Below are positions 1 to 30,500 of a DNA stretch of 60,000 nucleotides, piece by piece. The DNA comes from Botryllus schlosseri. Taxonomy: Eukaryota. The first letter of the stretch is position 1; every line of letters begins with the position of its first letter. The position numbers and the translations under genes were made by a program. Below the pieces are notes generated by a model. It had not been told where the DNA came from and did no database searches. It saw only the letters and a program-made list of their open reading frames with translations. The stretch covers positions 4,156,001 through 4,216,000 of the forward strand of contig CM119372.1 of assembly GCA_051294905.1 (NCBI GenBank), in the 5' to 3' direction.

Positions 1-639
1 ACATATATCATTTCGCCGAGCGGAGTAGTTTCCTTGCCCTGTTTTGGGAAAAAGTGATACATTTATAGTTGTGTGCACTCAGGCATGTAATGGATCAATC
101 ATTTCGCCGAGAATTATTTGTTGCATTTGTTTTGTACGGAGGCAAGCAGGCAACTTATGTTATCAGCAAGGACTGGACTGGGCACCTAGGTGAATTCAGA
201 CTCAAGTTAGATCTGCTCTAGCTTGACTTATATCAAATCTATAGTAACATAGCATTATGGATCTATAGTAAATCTATTGTAACATAGCATTTACGACTCT
301 AGTATAGCCATAACCACACCGCACTTACGGACCGAGCAGAAGTTGGCCTACAAATTCTCAGCCTACAAATTACCAAACGTTACCATCGGGTTAGTCACCA
401 CAAAGGCCATGGCAGCTACATTACAGCCACAAATATATTCGATAAATACTATCATTATGATCAGCTAAATATATTTATTTGATTGATCTCGACACGGAAT
501 AATCTATAACGCCCTGCAGTATGCGACATCACGGGCCCAACTCAATAAACAGAATTGCAAAATGTGGCCGCTATACTACTATCCTGGTTCGCATATAGGG
601 AATTACTTCCAGTCAGGATGCAATCCTTAAAGCGTGCCA

Positions 640-2308
640 CTTTTTTTTAACGTCATAAGCTTATATCATTCAATTGGACAAATCCTAGAAACACTTAATA
701 TTTGATCAAAAATCCTGGATGATGTCGAAATTAGAAGATGAATGTCCCCGTATATAGAGAATCCTCATACAATGGGGATGCAGGATGGATACAATCCTTG
801 GGATTCGCAACTTTTCAACGTTACAAGGTTAAATAACAGCACTAGACCAATACTAGAAACACTTTATGGTGGATGAAACGATCCCGGGCGATGTCCAAAT
901 TAAAAGATGAATACCCCCATATATAGAGAATCCTTCCAAAATAGGGATGCAGGATGGATACAATCCTTGAGATGCGCAACTTTTTAACGTCACATGGTTA
1001 TACAACAACACTAGGCCAATACTAGAAACACTTTATGGTGGATGATACGATCCCGGGCGATGTCCGAATTACAAGATGAATACCCCCATATATAGAGAAT
1101 CCTTCCAAAATAGGGATGCAGAATGGATACAATCCTTGAGACGCGCAACTTTTCAACGTTACAAAGTTGTACAACAGCACTAGACAAATGCTAGAAACAC
1201 TTTATGGTGGATGAAACGATCCCGGGCGATGTCCAAATTACAAGATGAATACCCCCATATATAGAGAATCCTTCCAAAATAGGGATGCAGGATGGATACA
1301 ATCCTTGAGACGCGCAACTTTTCAACGTTACAAAGTTGTACAACAGCACTAGACAAATGCTAGAAACACTTTATGGTGGATGAAACGATCCCGGGCGATG
1401 TCCAAATTACAAGATGAATACCCCGTATATAGGGAATCCTTCTAAAATAAGGATGCAGGATGAATACAATCCTTGAGACGCGCAACTTTTCAACGTTACA
1501 AGGTTATATAACAGCACTAAACAAATACTAGAAACACTTTACGGTGGATGATACGATCCCGGGCGATGTCCAAATTACAAGATGAATACCCCGTATATAG
1601 GGAATCCTTCTAAAATAAGGATGCAGGATGAATACAATCCTTGAGACGCGCAACTTTTCAACGTCACAAGGTTATACAACAACACTAAGCCAATACTAGA
1701 AACACTTTATGGTGGATGATACGATCCCGGGCGATGTCCGAATTACAAGATGAATACCCCCATATATAGAGAATCCTTCCAAAATAGGGATGCAGGATGG
1801 ATACAATCCTTGAGACGCGCAACTTTTCAACGTTACAAAGTTGTACAACAGCACTAGACAAATGCTAGAAACACTTTATGGTGGATGAAACGATCCCGGG
1901 CGATGTCCAAATTACAAGATGAATACCCCGTATATAGGGAATCCTTCTAAAATAAGGATGCAGGATGAATACAATCCTTGTGACGCGCAACTTTTCAACG
2001 TCACAAGGTTATACAACAACACTAGGCCAATACTAGAAACACTTTATGGTGGATGATTCGATCCCGGGCGATGTCCGAATTACAAGATGAATACCCCCAT
2101 ATATAGAGAATCCTTCCAAAATAGGTATGCAGGATGGATACAATCCTTGAGACGCGCAACTTTTCAACGTTACAAGGTTATATAACAGCACTAGACAAAT
2201 ACTAGAAACACTTTACGGTGGATGATACGATCCCGGGCGATGTCCAAATTACAAGATGAATACCCCGTATATAGGGAATCCTTCTAAAATAAGGATGCAG
2301 GATGAATG
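640..2308 (+). repeat. 168/169-bp tandem array, left arm (9 conserved units plus 1 diverged outer unit)
   Basis: The marker ATCCCGGGCGATGTCC recurs at 881, 1050, 1219, 1388, 1556, 1724, 1893, 2061 and 2230, with a diverged unit near 712. Confidence 0.95.
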
Positions 2309-3620
2309 AGAAGGATTCTCTATATATGGGGGTATTCATCTTGTAATTTGGACATCGCCCGGGATCGTATCACCCACCGTAAAGTGTTTCTAGTATTTGT
2401 CTAGTGCTGTTATATAACCTTGTAACGTTGAAAAGTTGCGCGTCTCAAGGATTGTATTCATCCTGCATCCTTATTTTAGAAGGATTTTCTATATACGGGG
2501 TATTCATCTTGTAATTTGGACATCGCCCGGGATCGTTTCATCCACCATAAAGTGTTTCTAGCATTTGTCTAGTGCTGTTGTACAACTTTGTAACGTTGAA
2601 AAGTTGCGCGTCTCAAGGATTGTATTCATCCTGCATCCTTATTTTAGAAGGATTTTCTATATACGGGGTATTCATCTTGTAATTTGGACATCGCCCAGGA
2701 TCGTTTCATCCACCATAAAGTGTTTCTAGTATTGGCCTAGTGTTGTTGTATAACCTTGTGACGTTGAAAAGTTGCGCGTCTCAAGGATTGTATTCATCCT
2801 GCATCCTTATTTTAGAAGGATTCTCTATATAGGGGGTATTCATCTTGTAATTTGGACATCGCCCGGGATCGTATCATCCACCTTATAGTGTTTCTAGTAT
2901 TGGTCTAGTGCTGTTATATAACCTTGTAATGTTAAGAAGTTGCGCGTCTCAAGGATTGTATCCACCCTGCATCCCTATTTTGGAAGGATTCTCTATATAT
3001 GGGGGTATTCATCTTGTAATTCGGACATCGCCCGGGATCGTATCATCCACCATAAAGTGTTTCTAGTATTGGCCTAGTGTTGTTGTATAACCTTGTGACG
3101 TTGAAAAGTTGCGCGTCTCAAGGATTGTATTCATCCTGCATCCTTATTTTAGAAGGATTCTCTATATAGGGGGTATTCATCTTGTAATTTGGACATCGCC
3201 CGGGATCGTATCATCCACCGTAAAGTGTTTCTAGTATTTGTCTAGTGCTGTTATATAACCTTGTAACGTTGAAAAGTTGCGCGTCTCAAGGATTGTATTC
3301 ATCCTGCATCCTTATTTTAGAAGGATTTTCTATATACGGGGTATTCATCTAGTAATTTGGACATCGCCCGGGATCGTTTCATCCACCATAAAGTGTTTCT
3401 AGCATTTGTCTAGTGCTGTTATTTAACCTTGTAACGTTGAAAAGTTGCGAATCCCAAGGATTGTATCCATCCTGCATCCCCATTGTATGAGGATTCTCTA
3501 TATACGGGGACATTCATCTTCTAATTTCGACATCATCCAGGATTTTTGATCAAATAATAAGTGTTTCTAGGATTTGTCCAATTGAACGATATAAGCTTAT
3601 GACGTTAAAAAAAAGTGGCT
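2309..3620 (-). repeat. 168/169-bp tandem array, right arm (7 conserved units plus 1 diverged unit), inverted
   Basis: GGACATCGCCCGGGAT (reverse complement of the left-arm marker; one copy reads CCCAGG) recurs every ~168 bp from ~2350 to ~3370, with a diverged unit near 3530. Confidence 0.95.
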
Positions 3621-4268
3621 CGCTTTAAGGATTGCATCCTGACTGGAAGTAATTCCCTATATGCGAACCAGGATAGTAGTATAGCGGTCACATTTTGCAA
3701 TTCTGTTTATTGAGTTGGGCCCGTGATGTGGCATACTGCAGGGCGTTATAGATTATTCCGTGTCGAGATCAATCAAATACATATATTTAGCTGATCATAA
3801 TGATAGTATTTATCGAATATATTTGTGGCTGTAATGTAGCTGCCATGGCCTTTGTGGTGACTAACCCGTTGGTAACGTTTGGTAATTTCTAGGCTGAGAA
3901 TTTGTAGGCCAACTTCTGCTCGGTCACTTACGGTACTATATATACAGGAGTCAGGACCTACGTCGATTTATATTATATATATAGTGGTGCCGACTGGTGC
4001 CATATGCAAATTGAAAAAGTTGTTGGCATGGATAATGAGTTGACCTATCCATAATGACAGACAATACGACAATTTATAATAAAATCATTGATCTTATTCA
4101 TGTATTTCTCAATTTATATTTTTATTGATTAATATTACAGTATGTCTGTATGTGTATAATTGGTAATATTGATGATATAGCATTTTGCATATTCATGTTT
4201 TTATCAGCGTATAGCTTAGGCTTTGCTTGTATTGTTCTCCCAGTACGCTTACTTTAAAAACTCTCACA

Positions 4269-7200
4269 ATGTCAGACAAAGCGGATAGGAAAGCCGAATT
4301 AGAGAGGAAAAAAGCCTATCTGGCGAAGATACGTGAAGATAAACTGAGGAAAAAGAAAGAGGTGCGATTTGTATATTTTCTCAATTTATAAGATTCAAGA
4401 ATAATTATATCAAAGTGATAGAGCTAGGTACCATATCGGTATTTTCCATGACTCACTGGCTAATTAAATTGAGGTATATTCACAAAAAATGGTATGGTAG
4501 GCTTATATCAAATCAATAGAAAAGCAACAAAAGACTGAACGTGAAACAACCGTTCTGAATATGCTACTTCATTTAATTAGTAATCTATATCGTCGGATAT
4601 ACCGGTAGCCTATAGATTTGTTCTTGTAGGAAAGTATGAAAATTCTTTATAAACTTGTTACGGTGATCAGTATCTCTTTGCCTAGTTTGTGTTTGCGTAA
4701 CCAGTGCCAAAGTGTTATCTTGACCATTCTTTAGGTTACCTACTGCGAATGTTCCAACATAATTTTCATCAGATTTGATACATTGCGAACATGCTATATT
4801 TTGCTCTGTGAACGTGTTCTATTTTTTTTCAAGTTTCATATTGCAACCATCCTTTCAGGCTGTAGCTGACTTGATGATCTCCCAATCCCTTTCCTACAGC
4901 CTGGTTCTGAATTAAATTATATAGACTTTGCTTTGTCATGTATACATGTATTTTCAATGCTCGTGGAACCGAATAAATTCACTCTCTCTCTCTCTCTCTC
5001 TCCTAACTGACTAACAATACCAATAAATATATTGAAATTCACCATCAGTATCAGTTTATTAACATTTTATCAACCATTTTTTACGCAAATTTACATCAGA
5101 CTCGTAAATATAAGTTACCATATTTTTCTTCTACCTATACATATAATGTTATAGTTGGAGCATCATTGGCTGTCCTGTTTACGTTTCTGTATTTTGTGTG
5201 GAAATTGTAATACTACAGTACAAAACGATCTTAATTTGATTTCTCACTTGCTTCTACATTAGAAATAGCAAATTTTAATCCATTATGATTGGTATGTATT
5301 ATAATGCATACAATGTATCATTTATGGATTAGAGATGGTATTTACAGTAGCCTACAACAAGAATCATTGAACAGAAGACTCAGATCAGCTAATAAGGTGA
5401 AACGAAGCTAATCGCACGCTTTTTATTGTAGCATGAAGAGGAAAAGAAGGCGGTGACTGTTGCGACGGATTTGGAAAAGAAAAGGATCGAAACAGAAAAT
5501 CTTCTAAGGGACATTGGTGTTGCGGATACCCCTGTCGGTAAGATTTTGGCTACAGATCTATAATTGCTTGGAAGGATCAGCATTTATGAGAGCGTAGGGC
5601 CAAATTCCAAATTAGAAAGAAATGCAACAAAATTATATACAAAATATACGGTTCTCCTGTAGCATTTTCAGGAAGACAAGAAATTACATTCGAATTAAAA
5701 TGAGAGAATGAACCATTTCACGAATTAGATTACCGGTAATGGCATTTCTCTCAATTAGTCCGAGTCTAACTAGTATCATTATGCAGAATAAAATGAAATA
5801 TAACGCAGCCATTGCTACTGTATAGTAGGTTAACTTAATGAAAAGATCGCCATGTTATCAGAGCGTGCTCAGGAAGAATTTTTCAATATGTCATCATTTC
5901 GATGTCACAATGTAACAGTGATTACACTGACTAATGAGTATGTTCCGGTGTGACCGTGCCACAAATACCCAAATTTCTAAATTGATGTGTAAATGGTGGT
6001 CTACGGACTTAACATTGAGTGGTTCAAATTACAATGTGACAGTATTTTTAGTAGGCCTAGGCTACACAGTGATGGTGTGACTTTAGCTGTCCTTGACGGT
6101 GATATTATCATATTTTAGTTCCATCCTCGAAAGTGTCTCCCTCAAAGTCTGCGGCCGCTGCGATTCCTGCTGCGGCTGATCCAGGAGGAAAAGCAAGGTA
6201 TGGTTCACTTTTATGTTATCTTCATAAACAATCAGTTCTTCGCCTTTTGTTTATTGGATAATAGCTTTATATATTTGTAATGATTTTAATATACTAAAAT
6301 AACATCCGATCAGGCACACGTCAAGAAGAAGCAAAATCTTCACCAGGTTAGGACTGAGTGAATTAACAGGATATCATACTCTTGATTCCATTAAGAATTA
6401 TCTTTTCTTGTTTGTTACCACTGTTAGATTGAAGTGAGTTGCAATGAAACTAACCCGCTGATACTAGATGTGAGATACGTAACTTTGAATGTGTTTGCGC
6501 AGCGCCGCTAGTGTGGATCGCTGGATATGCATAGAAAACGATATTACGATGTCTGAACAGGATGAATGCGATGATGGGTAAAAGATTGTAGTAGTCGGGC
6601 AAAGATTGCTTGGAAAATATATATTTTCCATGTTTTTTGCTTCTTCACTTACCATGCTATGTTGAAGTAACATGGTGTAGCGTTTAGAAAAGCTCGATGT
6701 ACTGGGGCTCTTCAAAAATAACTTTATTTTTCAAATTTTACTGGATACTTTATAAAATTGTTAGGTTACCTAAAAAAACGCTGCACACCAATTTTGGTTG
6801 TGTGGAAAAACGATGTAGGCCTGCAACAAATTTCTCTCAATTCCAACCAGTAGAAGCGAAGGTATTGAAGTACAAAAATTCTGGATTTGGAAAAATAGTA
6901 GGCTTACCTATTTACAGTGGCAATTGTTTCAGCGCTTCTTCGTTTTCCGATCGCAACAAGCCAGTGTTCCCCCATGGCACCAATAAGGGTTACAGGTGGG
7001 GATATTAGGGTTAAGCTTGGGGTAAGGAAAGATTTCCCCAAGATTCGCGTTGGGGGTGACGGATATTAGGGCTGAGTGAGAGTATCGTGTCCATCAACTG
7101 GGGTGAGTCACCCAAACCCTAATCTTAGGATACCCTTACCCCAACCTTAACCCTGATATCTTCCACCGCCAGAGTTGTAACCAAGTCAAAAGATTCCGAG

Positions 7201-10200
7201 TCACAAGTCAATCTCACTTTTATAGTTTTGACTCAAGTCAAGTCGAGTCATTTTCAATTCACCACCGAGTCGAGTCCGAATCCAAGTCATCGAGCAGAGG
7301 GTCGAGTCCGAGTCATGGTATTATGATTCGAGTCCAAGTCATTGTGTTGACTGCTCAGTTCCCAGCTAAAGTGTTGGTAAACCCACTTTTTATAAGTCTG
7401 TTGGTGATATCGAATGGTTCGCATTTCCTCACTTTTTAGCAGTTTCTGGTCTCAAATTAAATTACCAGTACCGATAGACGAAATGCCAATAAGGTGGTTA
7501 CTTTACTACTCTTCGAAATTACAATGAAATGTCTTTCTTGGCCGTCTGAGTCTCAAGTCATATGACTTGGTTCGAGTCATGCGCAATGACTTGAGTCCAA
7601 GTCGAGTCATTTTGGTATTTTTAGAAAATGACTGGAGTCAAGTCGAGTCATTGAAAAATCGTGACTTGAGTCGAGTCATGTCTCGAGTCATTACAACCCT
7701 GCCCACCGCAACCCTAATATCCATCCCTCCCAAGGTTAAAAACAATTTATATTAACGTGTTCATGGGAAAAATTGATTGGTGTCATGGGGAACACTGGCT
7801 TGCTGTGATCGTACAACAAAGAAGCGCCATTCTTTCATTACTTATTATATTTATTTTTGAACAGCCAGTTATACACAGTAGTCGAGCATTATAGTTGTAT
7901 TTTCGTTGTTGAAGATTGATACACATAATCTTGTGCTGCTCTTGTGAAAAATGGGACTCGGGTCATCCCAACACTGCCAATATTTTGGTATATAGCTGCG
8001 TGATGATAAGCTATTGATAAGCTTCTACTTTTTTGCAAACCTTGTTCTGATAACATTGGAATCGCGGACGTGTGGATTATTTGCAAATTGCGTTTCCCTT
8101 CTGCCTATCCCCGAGGCGCCAAAGCAGTTTGGATTGGGATCAAGAGCCAAGCCTTGTAGAACTTCAAGGGTACAATATGATATCATGGTACAGATGGCGG
8201 TGTTTTTTGTCCCACATTGCTCGTGTGTGCTTGATGGTTACGGGGTCTGCGCAGAATCTTGTCTATGATTGCAGTTCTTGGAGTGGAAATGAATTTATGT
8301 CATCTCACCTGGAGGTGCTCGAATTATTCCTACAGAAGTAGTATTAATAGTGTTTAAATTCTACGAAAGAGAATTACTTGAAGTGTTGACTTGAATGTAA
8401 TTAAGAAGTAGCTATTTCTATAAATATTTAATCATTTAAGCAGCGCAAGGAGGAATCTGTAATAGCTACTTGATTACCCAAGAAAAGTAGATCTGCTTCA
8501 TTGATAACCTGACTTCCTTTGGCATTGTATTGCTGAATCTATTGCGCAAGATATTCAATTTGTCAGAGTTGATTTTTTTTCAGCGACGATTTTGCAATAA
8601 ATGGTGACTATTTGAGTGAGCTCTTCCAATTATGTAAAATTATATGCCATCATTGTTTTTTGCCAGTGACTTGTTAACTTGAAATACGATATTTCCAGGT
8701 CGGCTATATCTTATCACATGCGATTTCAGATCTGCGGAACAGAAAATACTTGATCATAATAGTTTGCACAGAAAACGCACATTGTATTCCGTCATGTCAT
8801 GCATGATACTGTTGATGCGGGGCCTACGATAGGCCCCGGTTGATGCTTTTGTAAACCTAATCCTGTAGGTTGTAGCGAATGTAATAGAATTGGTCTTGGT
8901 GCATGCTGTTGATTGGGTCTGTTGTGCTGTGTTTAGTTGTTGGGATTCCTTCGAATATACTCCGATGTTCGTGCAGCCATGAGCTTTGATAGAGGTTTGG
9001 TATTGTCATTTGTCATTGTCACTAATTTGGTGTATTGGTGTGTTTGCCAAGCAGCACAGTAATGTCTTTGTCGTAGAAAAATCTTGAGACCTCCGTATCC
9101 ACGCAGGCCGCGCCGACAAGCAAAACTTGACTTGAGCAAAATAACAGTGACGTCGATAGCTCCCAAGGAGGTGGTGTCGTATGCCAAAGAAACTCAGACG
9201 CCGGTGCAGGAAACGCAGCAATCCGATGGTAGGCCACTTTTTTCGGAGATTTTAATTTTCGTGTTATTTCAACGTATCTTGTTAATAGATGAAGACGGAC
9301 AGGAGGAGGAGAAAATCCCCGTTATTGCTGATGAAGATGAAGAGGAGGATGACGCCAAAGAAGAGGAAGGTGAGATCATGTATGAGAGTTAGAACTAGGC
9401 ACAATGATTCGTGATGATTTTTACGAGTATTGAAATTATACGCTTCTTTCCACTAATAGTAAATTTATCAACGAGAATTATAGTTTCGGCACTATTTTAC
9501 GCAATCTGGGGAACATTAAACCTCGATTGGTTGTATCGCTGCATACAAAACCATTAGAGCTAGGCACATTGGTGAACTGAAGTCGTGATCAAACCACAGC
9601 GTTTTCACAATACGCAATGAAATAGGTATGGTCGGAAAAATACCGAATAATCTTTAATTTGATGTATAACTGGAGTTGCATTGTCTGTGGTCACGTAAAA
9701 GGTGCATATCTTAACTTTCCCCATTTTCCATAGTGTGTTGACGTCATACTCAGGGATATATGGGAATTGACATGAAATATATTTGAAAACAGGTATTTGA
9801 TTATGATGGAAAGCCTAAGCCTACCTGTTATCTCTTATTTGATTAGTATATTGATATTGAAATGAACCCGAATATTTCCGGCTAGTAGAGAATTGGAAAG
9901 AACACTTGTGTACCAACAATCGTTATCTCTTAGTTCAACGAGAGCTGAGCGAAGAGGAGAAGAGAACTATCGAAAACTCTGACGATTACATGTCATTCTT
10001 GAACCGCACGTCAAGGTTTATGGAGAGAGCCCTGGTGCACAAGTTTGACCTCTTTACCGAGTACAACTTGCAGCAAGACGAGGAGAGGTGTGGTAACACT
10101 GCGGGGTCATCATGTTGTGTTGTTTATTTCAATTATATTTTTTTAGCGAGGCGGATAAAGGCGCGAAATTGTCGTTGAATCGTGTTTTCTCTGACGAGAG

Positions 10201-16200: not shown

Positions 16201-17250
16201 GTTATCAAAACAACTAAAGTAGGTAGTCTCAGAAGTAGATTTGGTTGAGAGGTCGCATAATTTAAGCAGTTAGTCATAGATGACAGGGCTGTAACCAAGT
16301 CACATGGTTCCGAGTCGCAAGTCAATCCCACTTTTGTTGTTTTGACTCGAGTAAAGTCCAAGTCCTCGAGCAGTGGTCCGAGTCATTCTGTTGGCTGTCC
16401 AATTTCGAGTTGAAATCTTGTCAAACCCACTTTTTGTAACTCTGCTTGGTGATATGGAATGTTTCGTATTCATCATATAATAGTTTTCCTCACATTAACA
16501 GTTTCTGGTCGCATTTTCTAGTACCATGTCAATAGACGAAATACCAATCGTGTGGTAACTTTACTATTCTTCGAAATTACAATAAAATGGCCTGTCTTGG
16601 CCGTCTGAGTCTCGATTCATATGACTTGGTCCGAGTCATGCGCAATGACTTGAGTACAAGTCGAGTCAAAACAGATATTGACTCAAGTCGGGTCGAGTCA
16701 TTGTCCGTATTTCAAGAAAATGACTAGAAACAATTCGAGTCACCAAAAAATTGCGACTCGAGTCATTACAACCCTGGTGAAGGGCTTATTTTGAAATTTC
16801 AGGAAGCATTTTCGTGACTGACAAAAATTGGCTAATGGCAGTATGGCACTACGGATAGGTGCAATATTTTAAATTATGTTCAATTGTTTGGTTCCCATGA
16901 TACATGGGTTAATTCACCCAATAGTTGTGACAATTTCACTCATTAAACTGATGTAAGCATATCCCTATACTAACTAAAAGCAAATAGTTTTGCAAAAAAT
17001 TGTGAAGTGGAAGTACTCTAAACAACCATTTGATAAGTGCTATAGGTAAAAGCTCAAGAACTTTACTTGACCACTTCTGCCAATGACTATGTCAGTACCA
17101 GATATATTTACACTATATAATTGTTTTTTTTTACAGCAAATTGCTTCTCCGCGTAGTGATGAGTGGTCTCGTTTTGTGCACACGCTCGCAGAAATTAAGA
17201 GTAATGAAGCGGACCAAGAGGAAGGTTCAGCACACAAGCAGAAATTCTAA
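4269..17250 (+). CDS. DYNC1I: Cytoplasmic dynein 1 intermediate chain (WD40), 15 coding exons, ~595 aa
   Basis: Exons: 4269-4361, 5432-5537, 6119-6197, 9107-9228, 9289-9369, 9934-10087, 10147-10246, 12550-12656, 12719-12884, 12947-13060, 13949-14082, 15071-15215, 15279-15425, 15834-15959, 17137-17250. All introns are GT-AG and the frame is continuous. Motifs: N-terminal [15 protein letters not shown] (p150/NudE-binding helix), LC8 site SYAKETQTP, roadblock region RELSEEEK...FMERAL, and WD40 repeats [29 protein letters not shown] and [12 protein letters not shown]. Confidence 0.96.
4840..5001 (+). repeat. Probable retroposon 3' tail (AATAAA followed by a (CT)n microsatellite)
   Basis: GAATAAATTCA is followed directly by (CT)~10 at 4982-5001. 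The left boundary is uncertain. Confidence 0.35.
6931..7827. mobile_element. Palindromic MITE with ~55-bp inverted ends, interrupted by a family-A MITE
   Basis: GCGCTTCTTCGTTTTCCGATCGCAACAAGCCAGTGTTCCCCCATGGCACC matches GGTGTCATGGGGAACACTGGCTTGCTGTGATCGTACAACAAAGAAGCGC in inverted orientation. Internal TAGGGTT/AACCCTA motifs are present. Confidence 0.65.
7170..7701 (+). mobile_element. hAT-type MITE, family A (GACTCGAGTC-rich)
   Basis: TIR CAGAGTTGTAA...TTACAACCCTG with an 8-bp near-TSD TCCACCGC/CCCACCGC. Homologous copies occur at ~16284-16776, 22507-23037, ~25666-26127, ~30708-31034 and ~33437-33977 (inverted). Confidence 0.85.
10459..11712. mobile_element. hAT-type MITE with (GGCTCC)n subterminal repeats
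   Basis: Perfect TIR CAGGGCTTTGGAGC...GCTCCAAAGCCCTG and perfect 8-bp TSD CTGGAGAG (10451-10458, 11713-11720). Confidence 0.92.
10606..11285. mobile_element. Charlie-like hAT MITE nested in 10459-11712
   Basis: Ends TTGAGGTGGCCAACC...GGTTGGCCATTCCTG, TSD GTCTATAA/GTCTATAT, and GGCCCGCG subterminal motifs. Confidence 0.75.
12195..12472. mobile_element. Small palindromic MITE (TACCGAGAA/TTCTCGGTA repeats)
   Basis: CAATACCGAGAAAACCATTGCCGAGAA is inverted against TTCTCGGTAATGGTTTTCTCGGTATTG. Confidence 0.6.
13190..13495 (+). mobile_element. Degenerate Penelope-like 3' end (GIY-YIG C-terminal remnant plus pLTR)
   Basis: CAACAGAAAGAGTTTGTGTATAATCTAAAATAGTAC matches the [12 protein letters not shown] end of the 28122-28557 ORF. 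It is followed by pLTR sequence with a decayed hammerhead (CTGACGC at 13442). Confidence 0.7.
14396..14767. mobile_element. hAT (Tip100-like) MITE
   Basis: TIR TAGGGTTACGATAT...ATATGGCGACCCTA with near-TSD TATTTCGC/CATATCGC. Homologous to 39913-40240. Confidence 0.75.
15001..15054 (+). repeat. Perfect 27-bp tandem duplication next to a splice acceptor
   Basis: ACAGACCAACTACTGCTCATCCTAACG occurs twice, ending 16 bp before the exon at 15071. Confidence 0.95.
16284..16776 (+). mobile_element. hAT-type MITE family A
   Basis: CAGGGCTGTAACCAAGTCA...GAGTCATTACAACCCTG; homologous to 7170-7701. Confidence 0.8.
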
Positions 17251-18580: not shown

Positions 18581-21500
18581 ATGGATCACGATGCTGTTGG
18601 TCGGGGAAAAATCGGACTTACCACGTTTACAACAAGTCCAATACCGCACAACAAGTGTGGCAGTGATGGACTGCCAGTTACTCCGAATTCCATCAAAGTT
18701 CTGGGAAGGTTTGAAAACTAATTATATTGCCTATGTGCATCATGTTATATGCTATCGTTCGTGTTATTCTAGATTAATATTGCTTGACCTGTAATCTAGT
18801 TCTGTGAAGAAACAGTCAACTGGAACTGGCGACTCAAACAAATTGTCTTGAATCGTTTTGTAACTAAACTGACTGAAGTCTTAATTCAGGCAGAAGCGAT
18901 AAATGTCTTATGAAGTCTCTACTTCTTAGTTGTGGTAACATACCATTTATACTATTGCTAACAAAATTATCTGTGCCTGTGTTGATGTCCTTATGTCCTA
19001 ATAATCATCATCTTAATTCATCTTAATTATTTACATCAATTCTTATTTTCCAGGGCTCAAAGGTTCAAGTCTTTCAGACACAAACATTTATGCAAATATC
19101 TGGATTTCTGCCGAGGAAAGCATGACCGTATGTTCTGTATTTCCGAATATCACGAAAACAGCATGCTGAAACTGATCCCAAAGCAAAGGTCCGCAATCCT
19201 CAGTGAATGGTATGTTTCAATGTTAATTGAACTATCATCAACACATCATTATTTTTTTTCATTCCTATATTTTCAGGTATCGTGTAATCACCAAAATTGC
19301 GTATGAAATATTAGATGCTTTGGTGTTTTTGGACTTCAATGATATTGTGCATCACAATCTACATCCCAGTAATATTCTGATTAATGCCGAGGTGAGGTTA
19401 TGTTTTAATATTCATAGTGGCCGGACTCATGATTTCTAGTCTTACTGCCTGCACTCAGTTCAAATCATCAAGCTTTAGGCCTGAGACTTCAGAGATGAAT
19501 GAAACATCTGATATAGAATTCAAAATGTTGACAATTTACGCGAGTCCTATCCACTTTTGCACTAGGGCATACATTTTTCTAAATTTTAAAGCAGTTCAAT
19601 GTTAGGTCAGAATATCATTATGTAGATGTGAGCTGCTTGAGGTTCATAGCTTTCGATCAATCTGGATTTCAGCTGGAAATGGTTCCACTTCCACCAACAA
19701 TTTAAAGATGTTCATAGTTTTTTATTCAAATTGTTTTCAAATAAGATTTGGTCATGACTAAATATTAATGGTTGCTAGACCAGAGTTGTGAAGTAGAATT
19801 TTCAGCTTTTCAAAATTAGGTTAGAAATAGAATGACGACAAACATTTTTTTTAGATTAGAGGATTAGAATCAGGCCTATAGCTATGTACAGTGTTTTTTG
19901 TGTTTCGAATTAGATGAGAATTAGAATTGCTGAATTCACGAAAACTGGGGCATTCAATAAAGTTCAGTTCATATGAAATCACAATTCTCTTAAACATGAG
20001 AATAGCAAATGTCTGTACAGCAAGCTTGACATGTTTTGCACTGTACAGTAGGGCTCTCCAAAAATGACTTTTTTTCTCAAATGGCACTGGCTACTTGATA
20101 AAATTGTTAGGTTACCTAATTTAAGCCTACACACAAAATTTGGTTGAATTCCAGCCAGTAACCGCTTTGCTACAGGAGAAGAAAGTTTCTATTTATTATA
20201 TAAAAATAAATATTAAAAAATTTGAAAATTTTCTGTTCACCCCATGAAAGTGTTAGGCTGTCTATAGAAACGATGCTGACCAAATTTGGTTCCATTCCAA
20301 CCGGTGGAAGCGGAGTTATTGCCGTCGAAAAATTTTGATTTGAATAAAATAGTATTTACGGTGACCGATTCTTTGTTTATATATTATAGCTGTGCTCACC
20401 GTAAATACTATGTTATTCAAATCCAAATTTTTCGACGGCAATAACTCCGCTTCCACCGGTTGGAATGGAACTAAATTTGGTCAACATCGTTTCTATAGAC
20501 AGCCTAACACTTTCATGGGGTGAACAGAAAATTTTCAAATTTTTTATTATTTATTTTTATATAATAAATAGAAACTTACTTCTGTAGCAAAGCGGTTACT
20601 GACTGGAATTGAACCAAATTTTGTGTGTAGGCTTAAATTAGGTAACCTAACAATTTTATCAAGTAGCCAAGTACGATTTGAGAAAAAAAGTCATTTTTGA
20701 AGAGCCCTACTGTACAGCTCCCCTGTAGTATTTCCAGGATCACCAGAAGTTAGATTAGAAACGCAGAAAAATTTTGCAAATTGGATTAGAATTAGAGTAA
20801 AAAAACATTTCACAAATTAGATTACTAGATTACTTGCATTATGCTATAATTATTTAGTTGTCCAAGTCCGCTTGCCTGTAATGGTACCATAAATTATCCT
20901 CAAAACATTTAGGATTCCGTACGACTATATGCGTATGGCCTCTACTACATGACTGGGTGTGGACAAGAGGTGTCTTTTCCAATTGGTTTCCCGGCATACC
21001 TTAGTCCCGAAGAGATTTTGCGAATCGGCGGACACTATCATCCAACTTGCCAATATGCATCGGGAAAAATTGATGTCTGGTCTCTTGGGATACTATGTCT
21101 AGAACTCTGCTTGGTAAGTAACTGGTATGATCGTAACATAGTGGTAAGAGCCCATGCCATCTCAGTAGGACTTCGTAAAATCGAGTGACTTATTGATTCA
21201 TTTATTCAAGTACCAATCATTATGGCATCGCATGTAGTGAGATTGTTGAAATGTCTGCTTTCTATGCGTCACACACCAGTGTTGGGATGACTCGAGTCGC
21301 CTTTTTCGTATGACTTGACTTGACTCGAGTCACTTTACTAAAATGACTTGACTTGACTTGACTCGGGGTATCAGAAAAGTGGATTGACTCGTGACTCGGA
21401 GCAAAATTCACGAGTCAATTTCAAGTCATCAAGTAATCGGTGTCGATAAATATCACTGTATCTTCCATATGTTCGAATTGCTCGCGAAACGCCTCCATTG

Positions 21501-24500
21501 TTCTCTCACAAATAAATTGACCGCAAACGAAGTGATCGAAGCTTACAGCTTACGTTGTCGAAAACTAGTATAGAGATTTAGCAAAATGATATAGTATAGA
21601 AATTTAACAAAATGACTATTTGTTCTCTCACAAATAAATTGACCGCAAACGAAGTGATCGAAGCTTACAGCTTACGTTGTCGAAAACTAGTATAGTAAAG
21701 AAATTAACAAAATGACTATTTCTGTTCTCTGTTCCAAACCTCTTGTTTTATTTAAATAGAATTATAATATAGTTTATATAGTCCTCAACCATTGGCCTAG
21801 GCTCGGATTGTATCATATCAATTTGTAAAGGGGTATGTATGGCATCTTATCCATTCGGTTTTGTATTCTCTATTTTGGCTGGTAACTATAAACTGATGCT
21901 ATGCAATTACTTACGTAGTTTAACAGTGCTACGAATATGTGAGCGATACAGCCCCTTCTTGCGTGTAAATTTAAGTCTATATCCGTTCATCGGTTCAGAA
22001 TCAATGACCACTCAATATGTATTTCAGAGATCTAGCAAAATTCAATGATGTAATTATGCCTCATATTCCGAAAAGGCAACTTTGACTTGAATTGTGACTT
22101 GACTTGACTTGACTCGACCTGACTCGAGTCACCTCCAAAAATCGAGTGACTTGACTTGACTCAAGTCACCTTCGAAAATCGATTGACTTGACTTGACTCG
22201 AGTCAAAATGTTCAATGACTCGAATTGACTCGTGACTCGAAGGTAGTGACTTGATCCCAACACTGTCACACACACGTAAAAATATATTGTTTGGCCCGAC
22301 AAAGAAAATATTGCATCTTTCATCAGAATTACTTTGATTTCATAATCGTAAGTCTTTCATGGCGATGCTGCAAGTCGATTAGCTTTTGGAAATTACACTT
22401 CCGTTAACACAACATGCAAACTGCATAATCTGGTGTTGAATGCAGTGTTGTCAAACAAGTCACAAGGTCCCTAGTCACAACTCAATTCTAGTTTTATAGT
22501 TTTAACCAGAGTTGTAACCAGGTCACAAGGCTCCGAGTCACAAGTCAATCTCACTTTATAGTTTTGACTCGAGTCAAGTTGAGTCATTTTCAATTCACCA
22601 CCGAGTCAAGTCCGAGTCAAGTCAGCGATCAGAGGGTCGAGTCTGAGTTATGGTATAATAACTCGAGTCCAAGTCATTGTGTTGACCGCTCAGTTTCCAG
22701 TTAAAATCTTGTTCACCCACTTTTTATAACTCTGATTGGTGATATCGAATGGTTCGCATTTATAACATACTAATTTTCCTCACTATTAGCAGTTTCTGGT
22801 TGCATTTTCAAGTATCAGCACCAATAAAAGAAATCCCAATAGTGTGGTTACTTCACTATTCTTCGAAATTACAATGAAATGTTGGTCTTGGCCGTCTGAG
22901 TCTCGAGTCATATGTCTTGGTTTAAGTTATGTGCAATCAATGACTCGAGTTGAGTCATTTCCGTATTTTGAGTAAATGACTCAAGTCAAGTCGAGTCTTC
23001 AGAAAATCGTGACTCGAGTCGAGTCATTGCAACCCTGGTTTTGACTCGAGTCAGTTTCAATCTACCATCGAGTCCAGTCCAAGTCGGGGTTTAAAGGTTA
23101 GAGTCCATATCACAGCGTTGAGACTCGAGTCCAAGTTGTTGTATTTACTGTTCAATCCTGTTCAACTGACTTTTTTACAACTGTTTGGGTGATATTTAAT
23201 TCCTTGCATTCATAATATAGTAATTTTCCTCAATTTACAGAGTTTTAGGCCTATTTTCAAAACAGGAGCACTGATAGACGAAATACCAATAATGTGGTAA
23301 CTTTACTATTCTTCGAAGTTTCAATGAAATGCCCGTCTTGGCAGTCCTAGTCTCAAGTCATATCAATTGGTCGACTGAGTCTTGAGTTTTTGGAACAAGT
23401 GAAATTACCTTGTTAGTGACCAGTGACCCCTCCTGAGCTATAAAGCACTGGTTTTCAAATGTATTATATCGGTTGTGTGTTTCAGGGTCGGCAAATTTTT
23501 GACGATGAAGATGTTGAGCGTACGTGCGAGGAATTGCTATGCTTGATTGGCTCCGATCGCACCAGCGTGACCAACTTATTAGAGTGTACAGGAGATGAGC
23601 AAATGAAGCTGATATACAATGCCATACCTGATCAGTTGAAATTGTTCATTGAAAGTTGCCTCGAGGTTGATGTGACAAAACGGTAACTATGTTATATGTT
23701 GGATACTGTGCTGGGTTAATGTAGTAATGGATGGTGATCTAAAATAATGCATTAAACATGAATGTTCTATTCGCCCAGATTATTCGAAATTTCATTCCGG
23801 GGACGTCATATTTTGTGATACGATTGTTGATATACAATATTCTTTCCAATTCTCTACTAGTTGCTGTTATTTACTACCTCTGACTAGTGTCAGCCGAAAA
23901 TATTCATTTTTTTTTTCAACATGAATATATCATTCAATTGTGTGTTGATATTTTCTCTGTAATAATATAGTCTACTGCAGTGTAAAATTTTATCATTAGA
24001 CCATCAGCCAAACAGCTGCTTGCCTTCGACCTGTTCTCAACAATAGAGCAGAAAAATATGAAGACCCACGGTGAGCGGTCCACGTTATTTACAAACGGGT
24101 GCGATTGTTCCGGCCTGGAATTACCCACTTCGAAGGACACAGCTGCGGCAAGACACATGGGTTAGCTCATTCGCTTATTCGTTGTGTCATTTTCGAAAAT
24201 GTACTGGACAGCATGAAATTTTTTACAGAACCAGTCCTGGAACTGGAATACCCCGAAATTTGGCACTTGTGGAAACTTGCCGGTGGCGATGTGTTCACAG
24301 AAGTCCGAAAAAGCAACACGGTCCATTCTGTCCCGCCTATTTTAGATTTACCCCTGTGAGTATCCGAGTGTTTTCACTTTTGGAGCTGTGCTGTTGTGTG
24401 TATGCTGTATATCTCCCAGTCTTGAAAACAAATTGCAATTTATGTGAAAGCTGTTCATATCTCTATAGGTACATTAGATGGGTAATTCTGTCTCTGCAAA

Positions 24501-27500
24501 ATGTTATCGACAGATTTCTCATCGTTGGGACTCGGGATAGGCCGTTGACACTTCCATTTTGTGCCTTGGGGTCGACTTTTATCAAAATACACCGACCTAG
24601 TTTGTGCCAGTTACATTATAGCCTAATCATCCACTGTCCCACTCCCGTTGCAAAGCACTATGACCCCCGCATCCACGAACATTAGTTTTTGGGATTTTAG
24701 CTCCACTATGGGGAGGAATAAATATAGCTGTGTTAGCGACTTCATTCTGGGCCAGCTTCAAGCAATTCGTAACATGCTTTCGGTGAATGGGATACTGCAG
24801 AGGAACGTAAAAAAAATTTTTATTATTTATTTTTTATAACTAATTCCTTACTAATGAATTCTACGATCATGTCATCATAATAACACGATCGCCAATATTA
24901 AATGTGGTGTGACGAATAAAAAAATTGAATTTCAAGACGTGGTCTTGATATATAGCCTCAAATATCAAATCAAATACTTGTGTCATGATTTTCGGTCCCT
25001 GCACCCTCCAAAGGACACACAATCTCACCGAGCGAGCCAAAAATAGCATGCTTTGCCATATCCTGATAATCGTTTGTGCTAGAAAGCTAGTTTTCGGCTT
25101 GAAAGCTGCAGAAGTGGTATCTCATTTACGTAGAACTTTGCCTTAAAAATGTACAGAAGAAAATTTACAATCAAATTACTGATTTTTTTATAGTAAAATT
25201 ATGCACTGAATGTGATGTCACATTGTGTGCTAGTTAGCGCCCTTCCAATGCCAGTCATATTTTCTTCCTGTCTACTTGTATGCGTAATCGTGGGGGCCTT
25301 TTTCAGATCTATGTCACGTTTCGGCGAAGTTATCAGCCTGGAATCTTCAGTCGCACATTTGTATGACTCGTCCACAATCGTTTTGACTTTAGATGCCTTG
25401 AAGCAACGTTTAGAGGTGAGACGCACGGGTTTTTAGTGGTCTTCGGATTGGTTTAAATTATTTTTCAGGATGTCACCCCAGAGTCCTATTATCCGCTTGT
25501 GGAAGTCATGGATGACGGAAAAGAGACAGAAGAAGTGGTCACGCCTATGAAGGTATGCGCCACTGATATATTTAGTGGGGGTATCTAGATGTACTAGCTG
25601 ATATTTAACTATCATTCGCTAAACCGGTAATTTTAACCTTTTGTTTTACATATCTTGCCCTTTTAGTATGGTTGCAACAAAGTCACAAGTCAATTTCTTT
25701 TTTATAGTCTTGACTCGAGTCAAGTCAAGTCATTTTCAATTCACCACCGAGTCAAGTCTGAGTCCAAGTCATTATTGTTCACTGTTCAGTTTTGAGTTCA
25801 ATGCGTTTCAACCCACTTTTTTCAACTCCGCTCGAGTGATATAGAATATTTCGCATTCATAATGTTGGAGGTTTCCTCAGTCCTAACAGCTTCTCTCCCT
25901 ATTTGCCAAGTACCAGGACTGATAGACGAAATACCAATAATTTGGTCACTTTACTATTCTTTGAAGTTACAATTAAATATCTGTCTTGGCCGTTCTAGTC
26001 AATGACTCGAGTACAAGTCGAATCAATACACAAATTGACTCGGGTCGAGTCATTTTACGCATTCGAAAAAATGAGTCGAGTCAATTTGAGTGGCCAAAAA
26101 ATCATGACTTGAGTCATTACAACCCTGCCTTTTAGTAAATATAGCTTTTAGTTATACAGACTCAATACTCAAATTGGTTCCATGCCGCAGATTTGATATA
26201 TTTCTTTTTGAAAAGTGCACCTCTGCCTGTGTTACGTGTACCGTCATCAATCATTTAGTGTTAGTCTCAGTGTGATGTGAATCCAGCTGTAATCTTCTGA
26301 TAGGTTTTCAAGTCCACATTAAGTGAAAATGCTCATCACTAGTCCTAGATTGAGAGAATCAATGGCTGTCATCTTGTCAAGGAACTGGATGTAGTTTAGG
26401 CTGTTGAAGCTGAATCCGGTTGTGTTTGGATAGATGCGAAGCTGTGCAAAGTTCTCTGACTATTTGACTTTGTAAGCTTTTTTCTGATGCTCCAGGATCC
26501 CACTTCCGCTTTACCTCTTGTTATCAAAGAAAACGACATCGAATATCAACTGGACCGGATTATATTGTACAAACGAATACTCCTGGTATGCGCGTCTACC
26601 GCTCCCATGATTTCATAGCCTATAACTTTACTGTTGCACTGCAGGGATATCCTCATTTGAAGGAGAAATTATGGAAAGAATCGAGAATTGATATACCTCC
26701 TCATTTAAGGGGTAAGGCCTGGGCGGCACTGCTTGACGTAACGGTGAGTAAGTTGGTTTTTTGATCTAAGTCAAATATTACTTACCTCTTTCTCTGCATA
26801 TAATATATAAATATAATATTATATATGTTGGTATTTACCTACTCAAACTCACTGTATTAAAATACGTTTTAATATCGATGTATGATCTCTTCACAATGTT
26901 AATCTTTATTGTTTCATACAAATATTTTGTCTGATCTAATATTATGGCAAATTTCCTTTCAGATTCGATTACTTAGCACTCGTTACAATTAGTGAAAATA
27001 TGTGCGATTGATGTTAAATTGACGATTACCCCTGACGAGTGTCAGCCGAAAATATTGGGTTGTTTCGGTATGAAAATAGTATTCAATTGGGTGTTGAAGT
27101 TCTGTACCCCCCCAGAAGCTCTTCGGATTGATTTTTACAAATATATTCTGTATATTTTTTATTTTTTCTACATTATTTCCTATACGCAATATTAAGTTGT
27201 TTTCTTAGCATATTTATTCCGAATCGTTTCTCTATGTGTATGTGTGTGAGTTTAATGTATAATGTGTATGCATAGGCGCCGAACGCTCATTTTCCTTAGG
27301 CATGCGAGTTCGATGACGTCACAAAGGAATGACGTCATGATCCGACGGAATTGATAATTAGGGATAATATAGCATCAATTCATGAGGGTTAAGTGCCTGC
27401 ATAAGTGCCGATTATGCAATATCTGCGTGTTAACAAACTTGCGCGTATGATAAGCTTGTCAACGAGTCCGGAAGTGCTGTCAATTAGCGAGTCCCTGATC

Positions 27501-30500
27501 GCTAGCGAACAATTAAATACGCCGCTTATCAACGCGTAATACGTAACCTCGGCGACGATTTGCGCAAGGCAAAATGTCTGAGTTGTTATGGCATCTGTTC
27601 TAAAATGGCACCGATTTCAGGTTGTTGAAACCTTTCCCGTCTTTTACAACTCAAGCCTTGACAGTTGACACACATCTTCTGATGGTTATGTTTAGGTATT
27701 AGCGGGATTCACTTACGCATGCACGGCGCACTCACAATCGCACATGTCTGCGGACATTCGATGTCATTCAGGTTAGCGATGTCGCTCTTTAATTACAATC
27801 GCTAACCAACAAACACCTAACGGCATTGTCACCAAGCCATCGAAAGATTGGAGCTAGCGCATGCTAGGCTCGAGAGATGGGAGCCAACGCATGCTCGGCT
27901 CTAGACGCGATAGTTAGCCAGCGATGATATCTTTCGTACCAGGCCTGTTGCAGATGCGATTGTACAATTAAATAGTATATTCATATTGAAATGAACCCGA
28001 ATATTTTCGGCTGACACTCGTCAGGGGTAATCGTCAGCAACTAGTAGAGAATTGGAAAGAACATTGTATATCAACAATCGTATCACAAAATATGACGTCA
28101 CCAGCATGAAAGAGAGAGCGTTCAATGTACTATTTTTAGGTGGTACACGAACTCCTTTTGTTGACAGAGTTTTGGTTGGTGTATTTTGATAAAAGTTGAT
28201 TCCAAGGCACACAAATGGAATTGTGAGCGACCTCGCCCTACGATTCGAAATCGGTCGTCTCGATAATTATTCGCACAAATCGGATTATCCAACAGATGTT
28301 TGCCGATGGCAGAATTAATGGCCTTTGATCGATCAGCATCAATCTCAAGTGGATGAGTTGAGGGTGAGCTTTTCACTGAGCGTGTTCTGATAAATCTGGG
28401 GACATGTTGGTTTATGCGGTCCTGCAGACGTCTTGACGTTCTTCCCACGTAGCCACAATCACAGTGGCACCTATATTCGTACACTACATTACTTTGTTGA
28501 AGTGCAGGAAGCATGTCTTTGCGTGTTGAAGGGAGCAGTTGTGTTGTTGTATAAATGTTGGTGACGTCATATTTTGTGATACGATTGTTGATATACAATG
28601 TTCTTTCCAATTCTCTACTAGTTGCTGACGATTACCCCTGACGAGTGTCAGCCGAAAATATTCGGATTCATTTCAATATGAATATACTATTTAATTGTAT
28701 ATTGAAGTTCTGTACCTCCAAGAAACTCTTCAGATGCGATTGTGTAGGCAAGCGATAATAGCGTGTGCGCCAATGCAGATGCGAATGTGCGGGCAGCGAT
28801 GGCACCGGGCCTACTGCTGATGTGATTGTTCATCATGCTCAAGCGAGTGAAACTAGGCTTGTGGTAGACGCGATAAAGCAGGCAAGCGTCCCAAGCGATG
28901 ATTGCCGAACGCACGGCAATCAATGACACAATTTCGCGATCATCTCAGCGGGAGATCGTGTCGCGTTACATTGTGCACAGACATATCTCGTTAATTGGCA
29001 ACGCGCTTGTAGCTAAGTGGCCGCGCGCAACGGGTTACCTCGCTCACATAAGCGGTAGCAGGTAATGTCGTAAACGGAAATACATTGCGATTCGTTCTAA
29101 ATAACACAATCAGGGATTATGCCGATTCATGCCGAACCGAATTCTAGGCATGCCGAACCGAATTCTAGGCATGCCGCATGCCTAAAAAAATGTCTAGGTA
29201 TGCCTGGCTTGCCTTGCATGCCCAGGTTCGGCGCCCATGTGTGTATGTAATGAGCTATAGCTTGCACCGCATACTCCTGGTCTTCTAGTCTACATTGCCA
29301 TTTTGTTATATATCTTTTTCCTTGTCTTCCGGTGTGACGAATAAAAACATATCCATCTATTTATCCATCTATCTATCTTTCAGGGCGATGTCAAGTCCGA
29401 ATATATCAAGCTAGACAAGGACACGCCTCTCGGTTCAGACCGACAGATTGCAGTTGATATTCCGCGATGCCATCAGTACGACCCTGTGTTGTCCTCTCCA
29501 ACGGCGCACGCTAAATTCAAACGCGTGTTGAAAGCGTGGTTAAAGTCTCATCAACACCTTTCTTACTGGCAAGGTAGGATGGACGCAGGGATGGTCAGTA
29601 GGGATGTTCAAAATTAACTTTTTTTTCCCAAAATTCTAGCGATTCACTTGTTACATCATCAGGTTGTCTAAAGAAAACGTTACACGCCAAATTTGGCTCA
29701 ATTCCAACCAATGGAAGCCGCCGCAGACCAATTTGAAATTCCGGCCATTTTGGGAAATAATAATATTTACGGTGGCAAATTCGTCACTACGACATGACGT
29801 GATATCGTGTTCCGTCTATGCCTATCTGGAAGTGATGCTTTTTCCGCTTGTTTCCATCTTGACAAGGTTCTGTGATATAGTTTGGATAACAGCCATTCAA
29901 TGAAGAATAAATATCACACTGATTACCTGAAAATTTTGGTAACAATCAATTATCAATTTCTCTCAAACGTAGGTGGTTACGTTGGTCAGACTACTTCCAC
30001 TTGACAGTTTTTGGCGCAAAACTATCTTTGTGTAGTAGAGTGTAGTTTAGCGATCATCCATCCATGAATGCATTACGTCCTGCGTGAATTACTCGTGAAT
30101 AGATAAGGTCTTACACCACGCACCACTTACACACCACTTACACGCAACTACTTGCATAACGTTGAATAAACTGTATTGTCTTGGATATTATATCTGACTC
30201 GAAGAACTCTACGCAAGGTTACAGGAATTACCGAAATGAAGTATTCAGACAGCTCTAACCTATGACATAAGGTTAGCTACAATTCTGATACAGATCAACC
30301 CAGAGACTGTGACATATTGCTCCACAATTCCTTTATTACCGCAGCATCATCTGTGAGTCAAATTACGATTACAACTGGATAAAATAGCCCATTTATTTTG
30401 GTAACAGTATATATTTTCAAAATTTGCAGCGATTTGTAGCATACGTTTAGCAGTAAATCGTATGCGGTGCCTTGTTCAGGGCTGGATTCGCTATGCGCGG

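What the first reader, a model, noticed from the sequence alone, without database searches (positions are those of the whole stretch)
322..3933. 3.6-kb spacer-less Foldback palindrome built from a 168/169-bp satellite
Seen: the left arm (~1.98 kb) and right arm (~1.62 kb) meet with no loop at ~2308. Each arm has a ~300-bp unique outer domain plus an inner tandem array (10 versus 8 units). The perfect 9-bp TSD shows it moved as one unit. Established: long modular TIRs with 9-bp TSDs characterise Foldback/MULE elements, which promote rearrangements. Inference: this is a non-autonomous carrier that spreads a satellite with an unusually long unit close to nucleosome-repeat length. It could form cruciforms or >1.5 kb of dsRNA only ~340 bp upstream of the dynein start codon.
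Basis: partly seen in the sequence, partly recalled or inferred. Interest (0 to 1): 0.75.

Follow-up and report, generated by a model that had tools for sequence, protein, structure and literature searches.

The report
Gene-less foldback transposon beside dynein gene
This is a real, probably recent 3.6-kb jumping-DNA insertion in a sea-squirt-like genome, made of two mirror-image arms filled with 168-base repeats and no gene: a tidy new example of a known kind of transposon, sitting just upstream of a dynein gene.

Summary
The element spans 331-3924 between perfect 9-bp direct repeats. One copy alone also allows a 7-bp reading, but three contigs from two public runs stop at exactly 3924, and the ends are multicopy. 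It is therefore a transposon family with a 9-bp target duplication. It is not loop-less: the centre has a 23-nt asymmetric loop on a 10-bp perfect stem, and the arms pair at about 96%. The 'unique' outer domain is about 180 bp plus a decayed unit. Units are mosaics with arm-private variants, which argues against an assembly artefact. Best reading: a non-autonomous, centre-deleted Mutator/Foldback (Rehavkus/Tetris-like) element moved in trans. No transposase is present, so the superfamily is inferred. Unit length is ordinary for such elements, and no 10-bp nucleosome signal was found. One RNA run showed no reads over the outer arm. The central junction, the empty site and free satellite arrays remain untested. 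New member of a known kind; interest 0.27.

The parts
322..330 (+). Left target-site duplication, 9 bp (CACTTACGG)
   Evidence: boundary supported by contig ends
331..513 (+). Left terminal domain, about 180 bp, not derived from the unit. Begins ACCGAG and holds an 11-bp direct repeat at 346 and 361 (candidate transposase-binding motif, inferred)
   Evidence: 204 of 300 shuffles reach its score against the unit
514..685 (+). Decayed outermost unit (104 identities in 176 columns against an inner unit); mirrored in the right arm
686..853 (+). Diverged boundary unit L1 (140-142 of 169 identical to inner units; 3 differences from its partner R1)
854..2307 (+). Left inner array: 8 full 168/169-bp mosaic units and a 105-nt truncated unit
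2286..2308 (.). Central 23-nt asymmetric loop: 22 nt of ordinary left-arm unit plus one G (2308) that matches neither side's continuation
2309..3401 (-). Right inner array: an 84-nt truncated unit and 6 full units
3402..3569 (-). Diverged boundary unit R1
3570..3924 (-). Right decayed unit and terminal domain, 98% identical to the left; multicopy in public runs
3925..3933 (+). Right target-site duplication, 9 bp
4269..4361 (+). First coding exon of the neighbouring cytoplasmic dynein 1 intermediate chain gene (context, not part of the element). A pyrimidine-rich 3' splice-like site ends at 4243, 25 nt before the ATG
   Evidence: RNA depth

Best explanation
A non-autonomous cut-and-paste DNA transposon of foldback build, most likely of the Mutator superfamily in the wide sense (Rehavkus/Tetris-like), reduced to its two terminal arms. 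Steps. (1) SHOWN: it inserted as one unit with a 9-bp duplication, and its end occurs many times in the species with a fixed terminus at 3924. (2) INFERRED: a transposase encoded elsewhere binds the 180-bp terminal domain and perhaps the tandem units, cuts with a 9-bp stagger and moves the element. (3) SHOWN in pattern, INFERRED in mechanism: the arrays turn over by unequal exchange and slippage, which keeps inner units alike and mosaic while edge units decay. (4) INFERRED: the middle, with any transposase gene, was lost by a deletion with both breakpoints inside the arrays and one untemplated base, either in gap repair after excision or by breakage at the hairpin tip. The 23-nt asymmetry makes the remnant stable enough to persist. 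It is selfish DNA with no shown role for the dynein gene.
For: TSD and termini. Of the 8 X1 and 8 X15 pieces listed (3785 more pieces were not shown), three reach the terminus and all three stop at 3924: X1 record 1 (21 differences, runs on 10 letters), X1 record 2 (173 nt, depth 140 against about 10 for host sequence) and X15 record 14 (300 nt, 7 differences). Summed contig depth over the outer domain is 29 times (X1) and 6 times (X5) the host level (not a copy number). No ORF above 71 codons in any of six frames. Divergence gradient from decayed unit to L1/R1 to inner units. Four-gamete test: 83 of 190 column pairs incompatible, 10 of 69 within 30 nt and 73 of 121 farther apart; 4 of 21 recurring variants are private to one arm. 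Precedents: Tetris, Rehavkus, Tm1; Muta1 subterminal repeats raise binding and excision; asymmetric central deletions stabilise palindromes.
Against: No transposase and no autonomous partner was seen: no genome is held, there is no second copy in the window, and no look-alike among earlier notes. A second TSD was not read, so 9 bp rests on this copy plus contig ends. The terminus begins with A, whereas most arthropod MULE ends are G/C-rich in the first three bases (PMC13359780). The 11-bp terminal motif is not repeated in the units within 3 mismatches, so units as binding sites are unsupported here. Foldback build also arises in other superfamilies. The central junction was not checked with reads.
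Confidence: 0.78

Rival explanations
1. A foldback derivative of another superfamily, such as P/Galileo type with a 7-bp TSD and termini at 330/3925.
For: One copy alone allows the 7-bp reading. Galileo has long internally repeated TIRs, about 210-bp units, 7-bp TSDs and two-TIR-only copies (PMC3573991).
Against: The three listed contigs that reach the end stop at 3924, not 3925. If base 3925 belonged to the element, the shared multicopy contig should include it.
Confidence: 0.08
2. The element is real, but the spacer-less centre is an assembly or library artefact: a longer middle was collapsed, or a fold-back chimera was assembled.
For: No reads were laid across the centre, and the best run holds only 0.55 of the sampled words of 1-4600. 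Palindromes are hard to amplify and sequence (PMC8701086).
Against: A fold-back chimera would give mirror-identical arms. These differ in unit number and order, carry arm-private variants and 62 mismatches, and have different unique flanks. The species is very polymorphic (host alleles differ by up to 12 of 160 bases), which can explain the low word share.
Confidence: 0.07
3. The element is the founder or carrier of a true satellite: the 168/169-bp unit has escaped into long free arrays in some individuals.
For: Unit-to-outer depth ratio is 33 in X1 and 26 in X15, against about 8-9 units per end in this copy. Diverged unit variants occur in X5 contigs. Precedents exist in Tetris and Rehavkus.
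Against: The ratio is 4.7 in X5. The tool states that summed contig depth is no copy number, and fragmented variant contigs inflate it most over arrays. Longer arrays inside other copies would give the same signal. This is compatible with the best explanation and is an add-on to it.
Confidence: 0.2
4. A domesticated or functional regulatory element of the dynein gene (promoter, nucleosome-phasing array or dsRNA source).
For: It lies 344 bp upstream of the ATG. The splice-like site at 4243 suggests an upstream exon or trans-splicing; putative Ciona outrons average 438 bp (PMC4691747), so the promoter could lie near the insertion point.
Against: A perfect TSD and 98% arm identity suggest a recent insertion. 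No periodicity signal. No RNA depth over 3502-4149 in one run. MULEs tend to insert near genes anyway (PMC6446971).
Confidence: 0.04
5. A member of the gene-less Polinton/Maverick-ended palindrome family that earlier notes describe in this genome.
For: Unchecked notes report hundreds of such palindromes in the same genome.
Against: Those notes give 6-bp TSDs, an (AGT)2 end motif and 6-kb arms. This element has a 9-bp TSD, ACCGAG ends and tandem arrays, and shares no indexed words with them.
Confidence: 0.01

Closest known systems
Tetris foldback transposon of Drosophila virilis (PMC4079207; parts 1-2 of 6 and passages read)
   Same: Non-autonomous; TIRs up to 1735 bp with a flanking domain and a variable number of long tandem units; 8-10 bp TSDs; no ORF; placed in Mutator by TSD length only.
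   Different: Tetris has about 220-bp AT-rich units, an inner domain and a middle domain. This copy has 168/169-bp units at 39% GC and neither inner nor middle domain. Free arrays are shown for Tetris and not here. No sequence comparison was possible.
Rehavkus (MULE-related group; PMC6446971 and PMC12581902, passages read)
   Same: 9-bp TSD; inverted termini made of a TIR plus 2-50 subterminal tandem repeats. Unchecked notes report Rehavkus-like elements with satellite arms in this same genome.
   Different: Rehavkus is defined by a PHD-bearing transposase, which this copy lacks. The paper lists arthropod and annelid hosts only. No shared sequence with the noted elements was found.
Tm1 (Phantom-type MULE) and Muta1 (PMC3169594, PMC5499845, passages read)
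   Same: Composite TIRs with asymmetric repeat numbers, 8-9 bp TSDs, non-autonomous derivatives.
   Different: Muta1 has a 145-bp TIR with 12-bp units and a palindromic terminal motif; both families have a known transposase.
Galileo (P superfamily; PMC3573991, passages read)
   Same: Long TIRs with about 210-bp tandem units that change independently in each arm; two-TIR-only deletion derivatives.
   Different: 7-bp TSD and P-type transposase; the boundary evidence here favours 9 bp.

Membership tests
Foldback elements (structural class) | Long terminal inverted repeats | tested here: met
   Arms of 1977 and 1616 bp; outer 350 bp 98% identical
Foldback elements (structural class) | Modular arms with a variable number of internal tandem repeats | tested here: met
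   9 full plus partial against 7 full plus partial units
Foldback elements (structural class) | Target-site duplication and dispersed copies with the same end | tested here: met
   9-bp TSD; multicopy end that stops at 3924. A second TSD was not read.
Foldback elements (structural class) | Middle domain of variable size, often non-coding | tested here: inconclusive
   Absent in this copy, 23-nt loop only; middles of other copies not seen
Mutator/MULE superfamily | TSD of 8-11 bp | tested here: met
   9 bp; range from PMC6446971
Mutator/MULE superfamily | TIR longer than 100 bp | tested here: met
   criterion from PMC5499845
Mutator/MULE superfamily | G/C-rich first three terminal bases (a tendency, not a rule) | tested here: inconclusive
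   Ends begin A-C-C; tendency from PMC13359780
Mutator/MULE superfamily | MULE-type DDE transposase in an autonomous partner with the same ends | not testable with these tools
   No ORF above 71 codons; no genome held
Rehavkus | 9-bp TSD with subterminal tandem repeats | tested here: met
   features
Rehavkus | Transposase with a PHD finger | not testable with these tools
P/Galileo | 7-bp TSD | tested here: not met
   The 7-bp reading needs terminus 3925; three contigs stop at 3924
Satellite DNA in the strict sense | Long free head-to-tail arrays outside the transposon | tested here: inconclusive
   Unit-to-outer depth ratios 33, 4.7 and 26; not copy numbers

The most novel reading that the evidence does not exclude
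A satellite caught at birth in a chordate. A low-copy Rehavkus-like family loses its middle by hairpin-tip breakage and still transposes as a pure palindrome. Its 168/169-bp unit has expanded several-fold in some individuals of the species (X1-like) but not others (X5-like), and one polymorphic copy lies in or beside the promoter or outron of the dynein intermediate chain gene. This would give a within-species system to test transposon-to-satellite conversion and the effect of a 3.6-kb hairpin on an essential gene.
Probability: 0.15. Interest if true: 0.55.

Novelty: new member of a known kind. Interest (0 to 1): 0.27.

Why it matters
As it stands it is a well-preserved example of a known kind of element, in a group where few Mutator-like elements are described (PMC6446971 found one chordate sequence, from Ciona savignyi). 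Its anatomy records array turnover clearly: a decayed edge unit, a diverged boundary unit, mosaic inner units and a centre-deleted hairpin. It matters more only if free arrays or an empty allele are found, which would make satellite birth or a promoter effect testable within one species.

Tried and rejected
Whole-genome search: no genome is held. Other copies in the window: none by BLAST or by the terminal 16-mer with 3 mismatches. Rfam: 4 miRNA-precursor hits on the central hairpin, all far below their gathering scores, rejected as hairpin look-alikes. X15 (organism B) holds a 300-nt end at 7 differences but has no depth over the host exon. I read this as low-level DNA in which only repeats assembled, not as horizontal transfer. 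Sub-period inside the unit: top lag 0.36, below the 95th percentile of shuffles (0.38). Terminal domain as an old unit: not significant. Earlier-note look-ups by sequence and by words found nothing. Literature: searches listed no paper describing this or another ascidian foldback family. The library is partial and Repbase was not available; I recall, without having seen it here, that a foldback element was reported in Ciona by Simmen and Bird in 2000. Supplements were not read; the Rehavkus details in the supplements of PMC6446971 and PMC12581902 may bear on terminal motifs.

Full report
WHAT IS THERE. The window holds an inverted repeat with termini at 331 and 3924, flanked by CACTTACGG at 322-330 and 3925-3933. 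Two random 9-mers of this window match with probability about 9e-6. The outer 350 bp of the arms differ at 7 positions. Tandem Repeats Finder gives 9.7 copies of period 169 on the left and 7.3 copies of period 168 on the right. Splitting at a shared anchor gives 9 full units plus 105 nt, and 7 full units plus 84 nt. No reading frame exceeds 71 codons from stop to stop. There is no second copy in the window.

The centre has no unique spacer but it does have a loop. Base 2285 pairs with 2309, leaving 23 nt unpaired; the perfect stem is 10 bp, with mismatches at stem positions 11, 19 and 24. The loop is 22 nt of ordinary unit plus one G that fits neither side's continuation. The arms pair at best with 1552 matches and 62 mismatches, two unit-sized gaps and no perfect run above 149 bp. 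The outer domain is not all unique. About 514-685 aligns to an inner unit with 104 identities in 176 columns, and 0 of 300 shuffles reach the score; 331-513 shows no such likeness (204 of 300 shuffles reach it).

TSD LENGTH. Because the duplication starts with C and ends with G, this copy can be read as a 9-bp TSD with ends at 331/3924 or a 7-bp TSD with ends at 330/3925. The two readings point to different superfamilies. I laid four public runs on 3340-5740. Of the 24 pieces listed (3785 not shown), three reach the terminus and all stop at 3924. X1 record 2 is a 173-nt contig at depth 140 that begins at that base. X1 record 1 is a diverged relative with 21 differences in 181 nt that runs on for 10 more letters. 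X15 record 14 is 300 nt with 7 differences. An assembly-graph contig of a repeat ends where copies stop sharing sequence (established behaviour, my inference here), so 3925 is flank and the TSD is 9 bp. No second TSD was read.

FAMILY. Summed contig depth over the outer domain is 29 times the host level in X1 and 6 times in X5. The tool warns that this is no copy number, so I take it only as 'multicopy, modest'. A diverged end and diverged unit variants (X5 joints back to 3342 with other letters between) point to older subfamilies. The unit-to-outer ratio is 33 in X1, 26 in X15 and 4.7 in X5, against about 8-9 units per end in this copy. This may reflect longer or free arrays in some individuals, or fragmentation of variant contigs; I cannot tell which.

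ARRAY HISTORY. Inner units differ by about 11 positions on average, alike within and between arms (11.2, 10.3, 11.2), but the closest pairs are within arms (1 difference, against 3 between arms). Of 21 recurring minor variants, 17 occur in both arms and 4 in one arm only. Among 20 informative columns, 83 of 190 pairs fail the four-gamete test: 10 of 69 pairs within 30 nt and 73 of 121 farther apart (computed on the 14 full inner units, leaving out L1, R1 and the two partial units). The units are therefore mosaics of older blocks, as repeated unequal exchange would give. The gradient from decayed unit to boundary unit (L1 and R1 differ by 3 from each other and by 24-33 from full inner units) to inner units is the usual edge effect. 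The arm-private variants and different unit order argue against a fold-back read artefact, although I did not lay reads across the centre.

HOST AND NEIGHBOUR. The gene downstream is a cytoplasmic dynein 1 intermediate chain (Pfam Dynein_IC2, E 3e-11). A 597-aa protein at 98% identity over the searched part begins with the peptide encoded from ATG 4269. The named relatives are from Styela clava (82%) and Phallusia mammillata (81%), so the host is probably an ascidian (inference). A pyrimidine-rich AG ends at 4243, 25 nt before the ATG, which suggests an upstream exon or trans-splicing. About half of Ciona genes are trans-spliced and putative outrons average 438 bp with a peak near 100 bp (PMC4691747, passages). 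The distance to the start codon therefore does not fix the distance to the promoter. In RNA run X23 (about 6% read, 204 reads laid) exon 1 has depth 5-6, 3502-4149 has none, and one unit bin has about 1. This gives no support for read-through dsRNA, but a single library that may lose hairpins and small RNAs cannot exclude it.

MECHANISM. The most likely story is a non-autonomous Mutator/Foldback element moved in trans. MULEs have long TIRs and 8-10 bp TSDs, and in Muta1 more subterminal repeats give more binding and excision (PMC5499845, passages). Whether these 168-bp units bind transposase is untested; the 11-bp motif repeated at 346 and 361 is not found in them within 3 mismatches. Both arrays end mid-unit at different phases with one extra base, which fits a deletion repaired by end joining. 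In mouse cells most rearrangements of a long palindrome are small central deletions that break symmetry and raise stability about 25-fold (review PMC8701086, passages). In yeast, breaks at Alu inverted repeats drop about 80% at a 9-bp spacer (PMC8053094, passages). The 23-nt loop is thus what a survivable palindrome should look like, and it weakens the cruciform claim without excluding hairpins in single-stranded DNA.

COMPARISON. Tetris has the same plan with about 220-bp units and 8-10 bp TSDs, and seeded satellite arrays (PMC4079207, parts 1-2 of 6 and passages). Rehavkus elements carry 2-50 repeats in their termini, and one unit grew to an 80.5-kb array (PMC12581902 and its preprint, passages); their TSD is 9 bp (PMC6446971, passages). 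Tm1 has composite TIRs and 9-bp TSDs with a Phantom-type enzyme (PMC3169594, passages). Galileo shows that the build also arises in the P superfamily (PMC3573991, passages). A 168-bp unit is within this range, and 6 of 6 tests for 10-11 bp periodicity were negative. It works like a Tetris/Rehavkus element and meets the structural definition of a foldback; membership of MULE or Rehavkus rests on TSD and build only. Unchecked notes from this scan report several Rehavkus-like elements with satellite arms and PHD-DDE-protease transposases in the same genome. They are candidates for the helper, but sequence look-ups found no overlap with this element, so they are leads only.

VERDICT. A real, well-preserved, centre-deleted foldback transposon: new member of a known kind, interest 0.27. 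The boldest reading that is not excluded is a satellite expanding in some individuals together with a polymorphic insertion at the dynein promoter (probability 0.15, interest 0.55).

Noticed in passing
window 20041-20717: A second, unrelated palindromic element of 677 bp, 93% self-complementary, with a 31-nt centre; it looks like a MITE. No clear TSD was found at the outermost boundary.
   Followed up: partly
window 5608-5740 and 4636-4959: Two very high-copy repeat fragments in dynein introns (summed depth up to 80,000 in X5). The loose ends before 5645 resemble the sequence just left of the palindrome at 20041.
   Followed up: no
window 7169-7702, 16284-16778, 22443-23371, 25681-26128, 30710-31035, 33434-33976: A family of about 500-bp dispersed repeats, 66-92% alike, at least six copies in both orientations.
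   Followed up: no
window 4223-4243: A pyrimidine-rich 3' splice-like site 25 nt before the dynein ATG; RNA depth rises in this bin. It may be a trans-splice acceptor or mark an upstream non-coding exon.
   Followed up: partly
window 4015-5632: Host alleles in public runs differ strongly, up to 26 differences in 294 nt, and X1 shows at least three haplotype contigs over 4015-4193.
   Followed up: no
window 40827-41147 (-): Remnant of a hAT transposase C-terminal dimerisation region (Pfam PF05699, E 3.7e-07).
   Followed up: no
window 31530-31862 (+) and 57550-58230 (+): An exon of a Rab-GAP TBC-domain gene (E 8e-05, below the curated cut-off) and the last exon of a homeobox gene (E 1.7e-05).
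   Followed up: no
window 28122-28631 (-): A 169-aa frame with no Pfam hit. By eye it resembles the GIY-YIG end of a Penelope-like element (recalled, not tested); it lies between inverted 145-bp repeats at 27963-28107 and 28555-28699.
   Followed up: no
window 32209-32991 and 42803-43590: An 800-bp repeat pair in inverted orientation, 86% identical, 10 kb apart.
   Followed up: no
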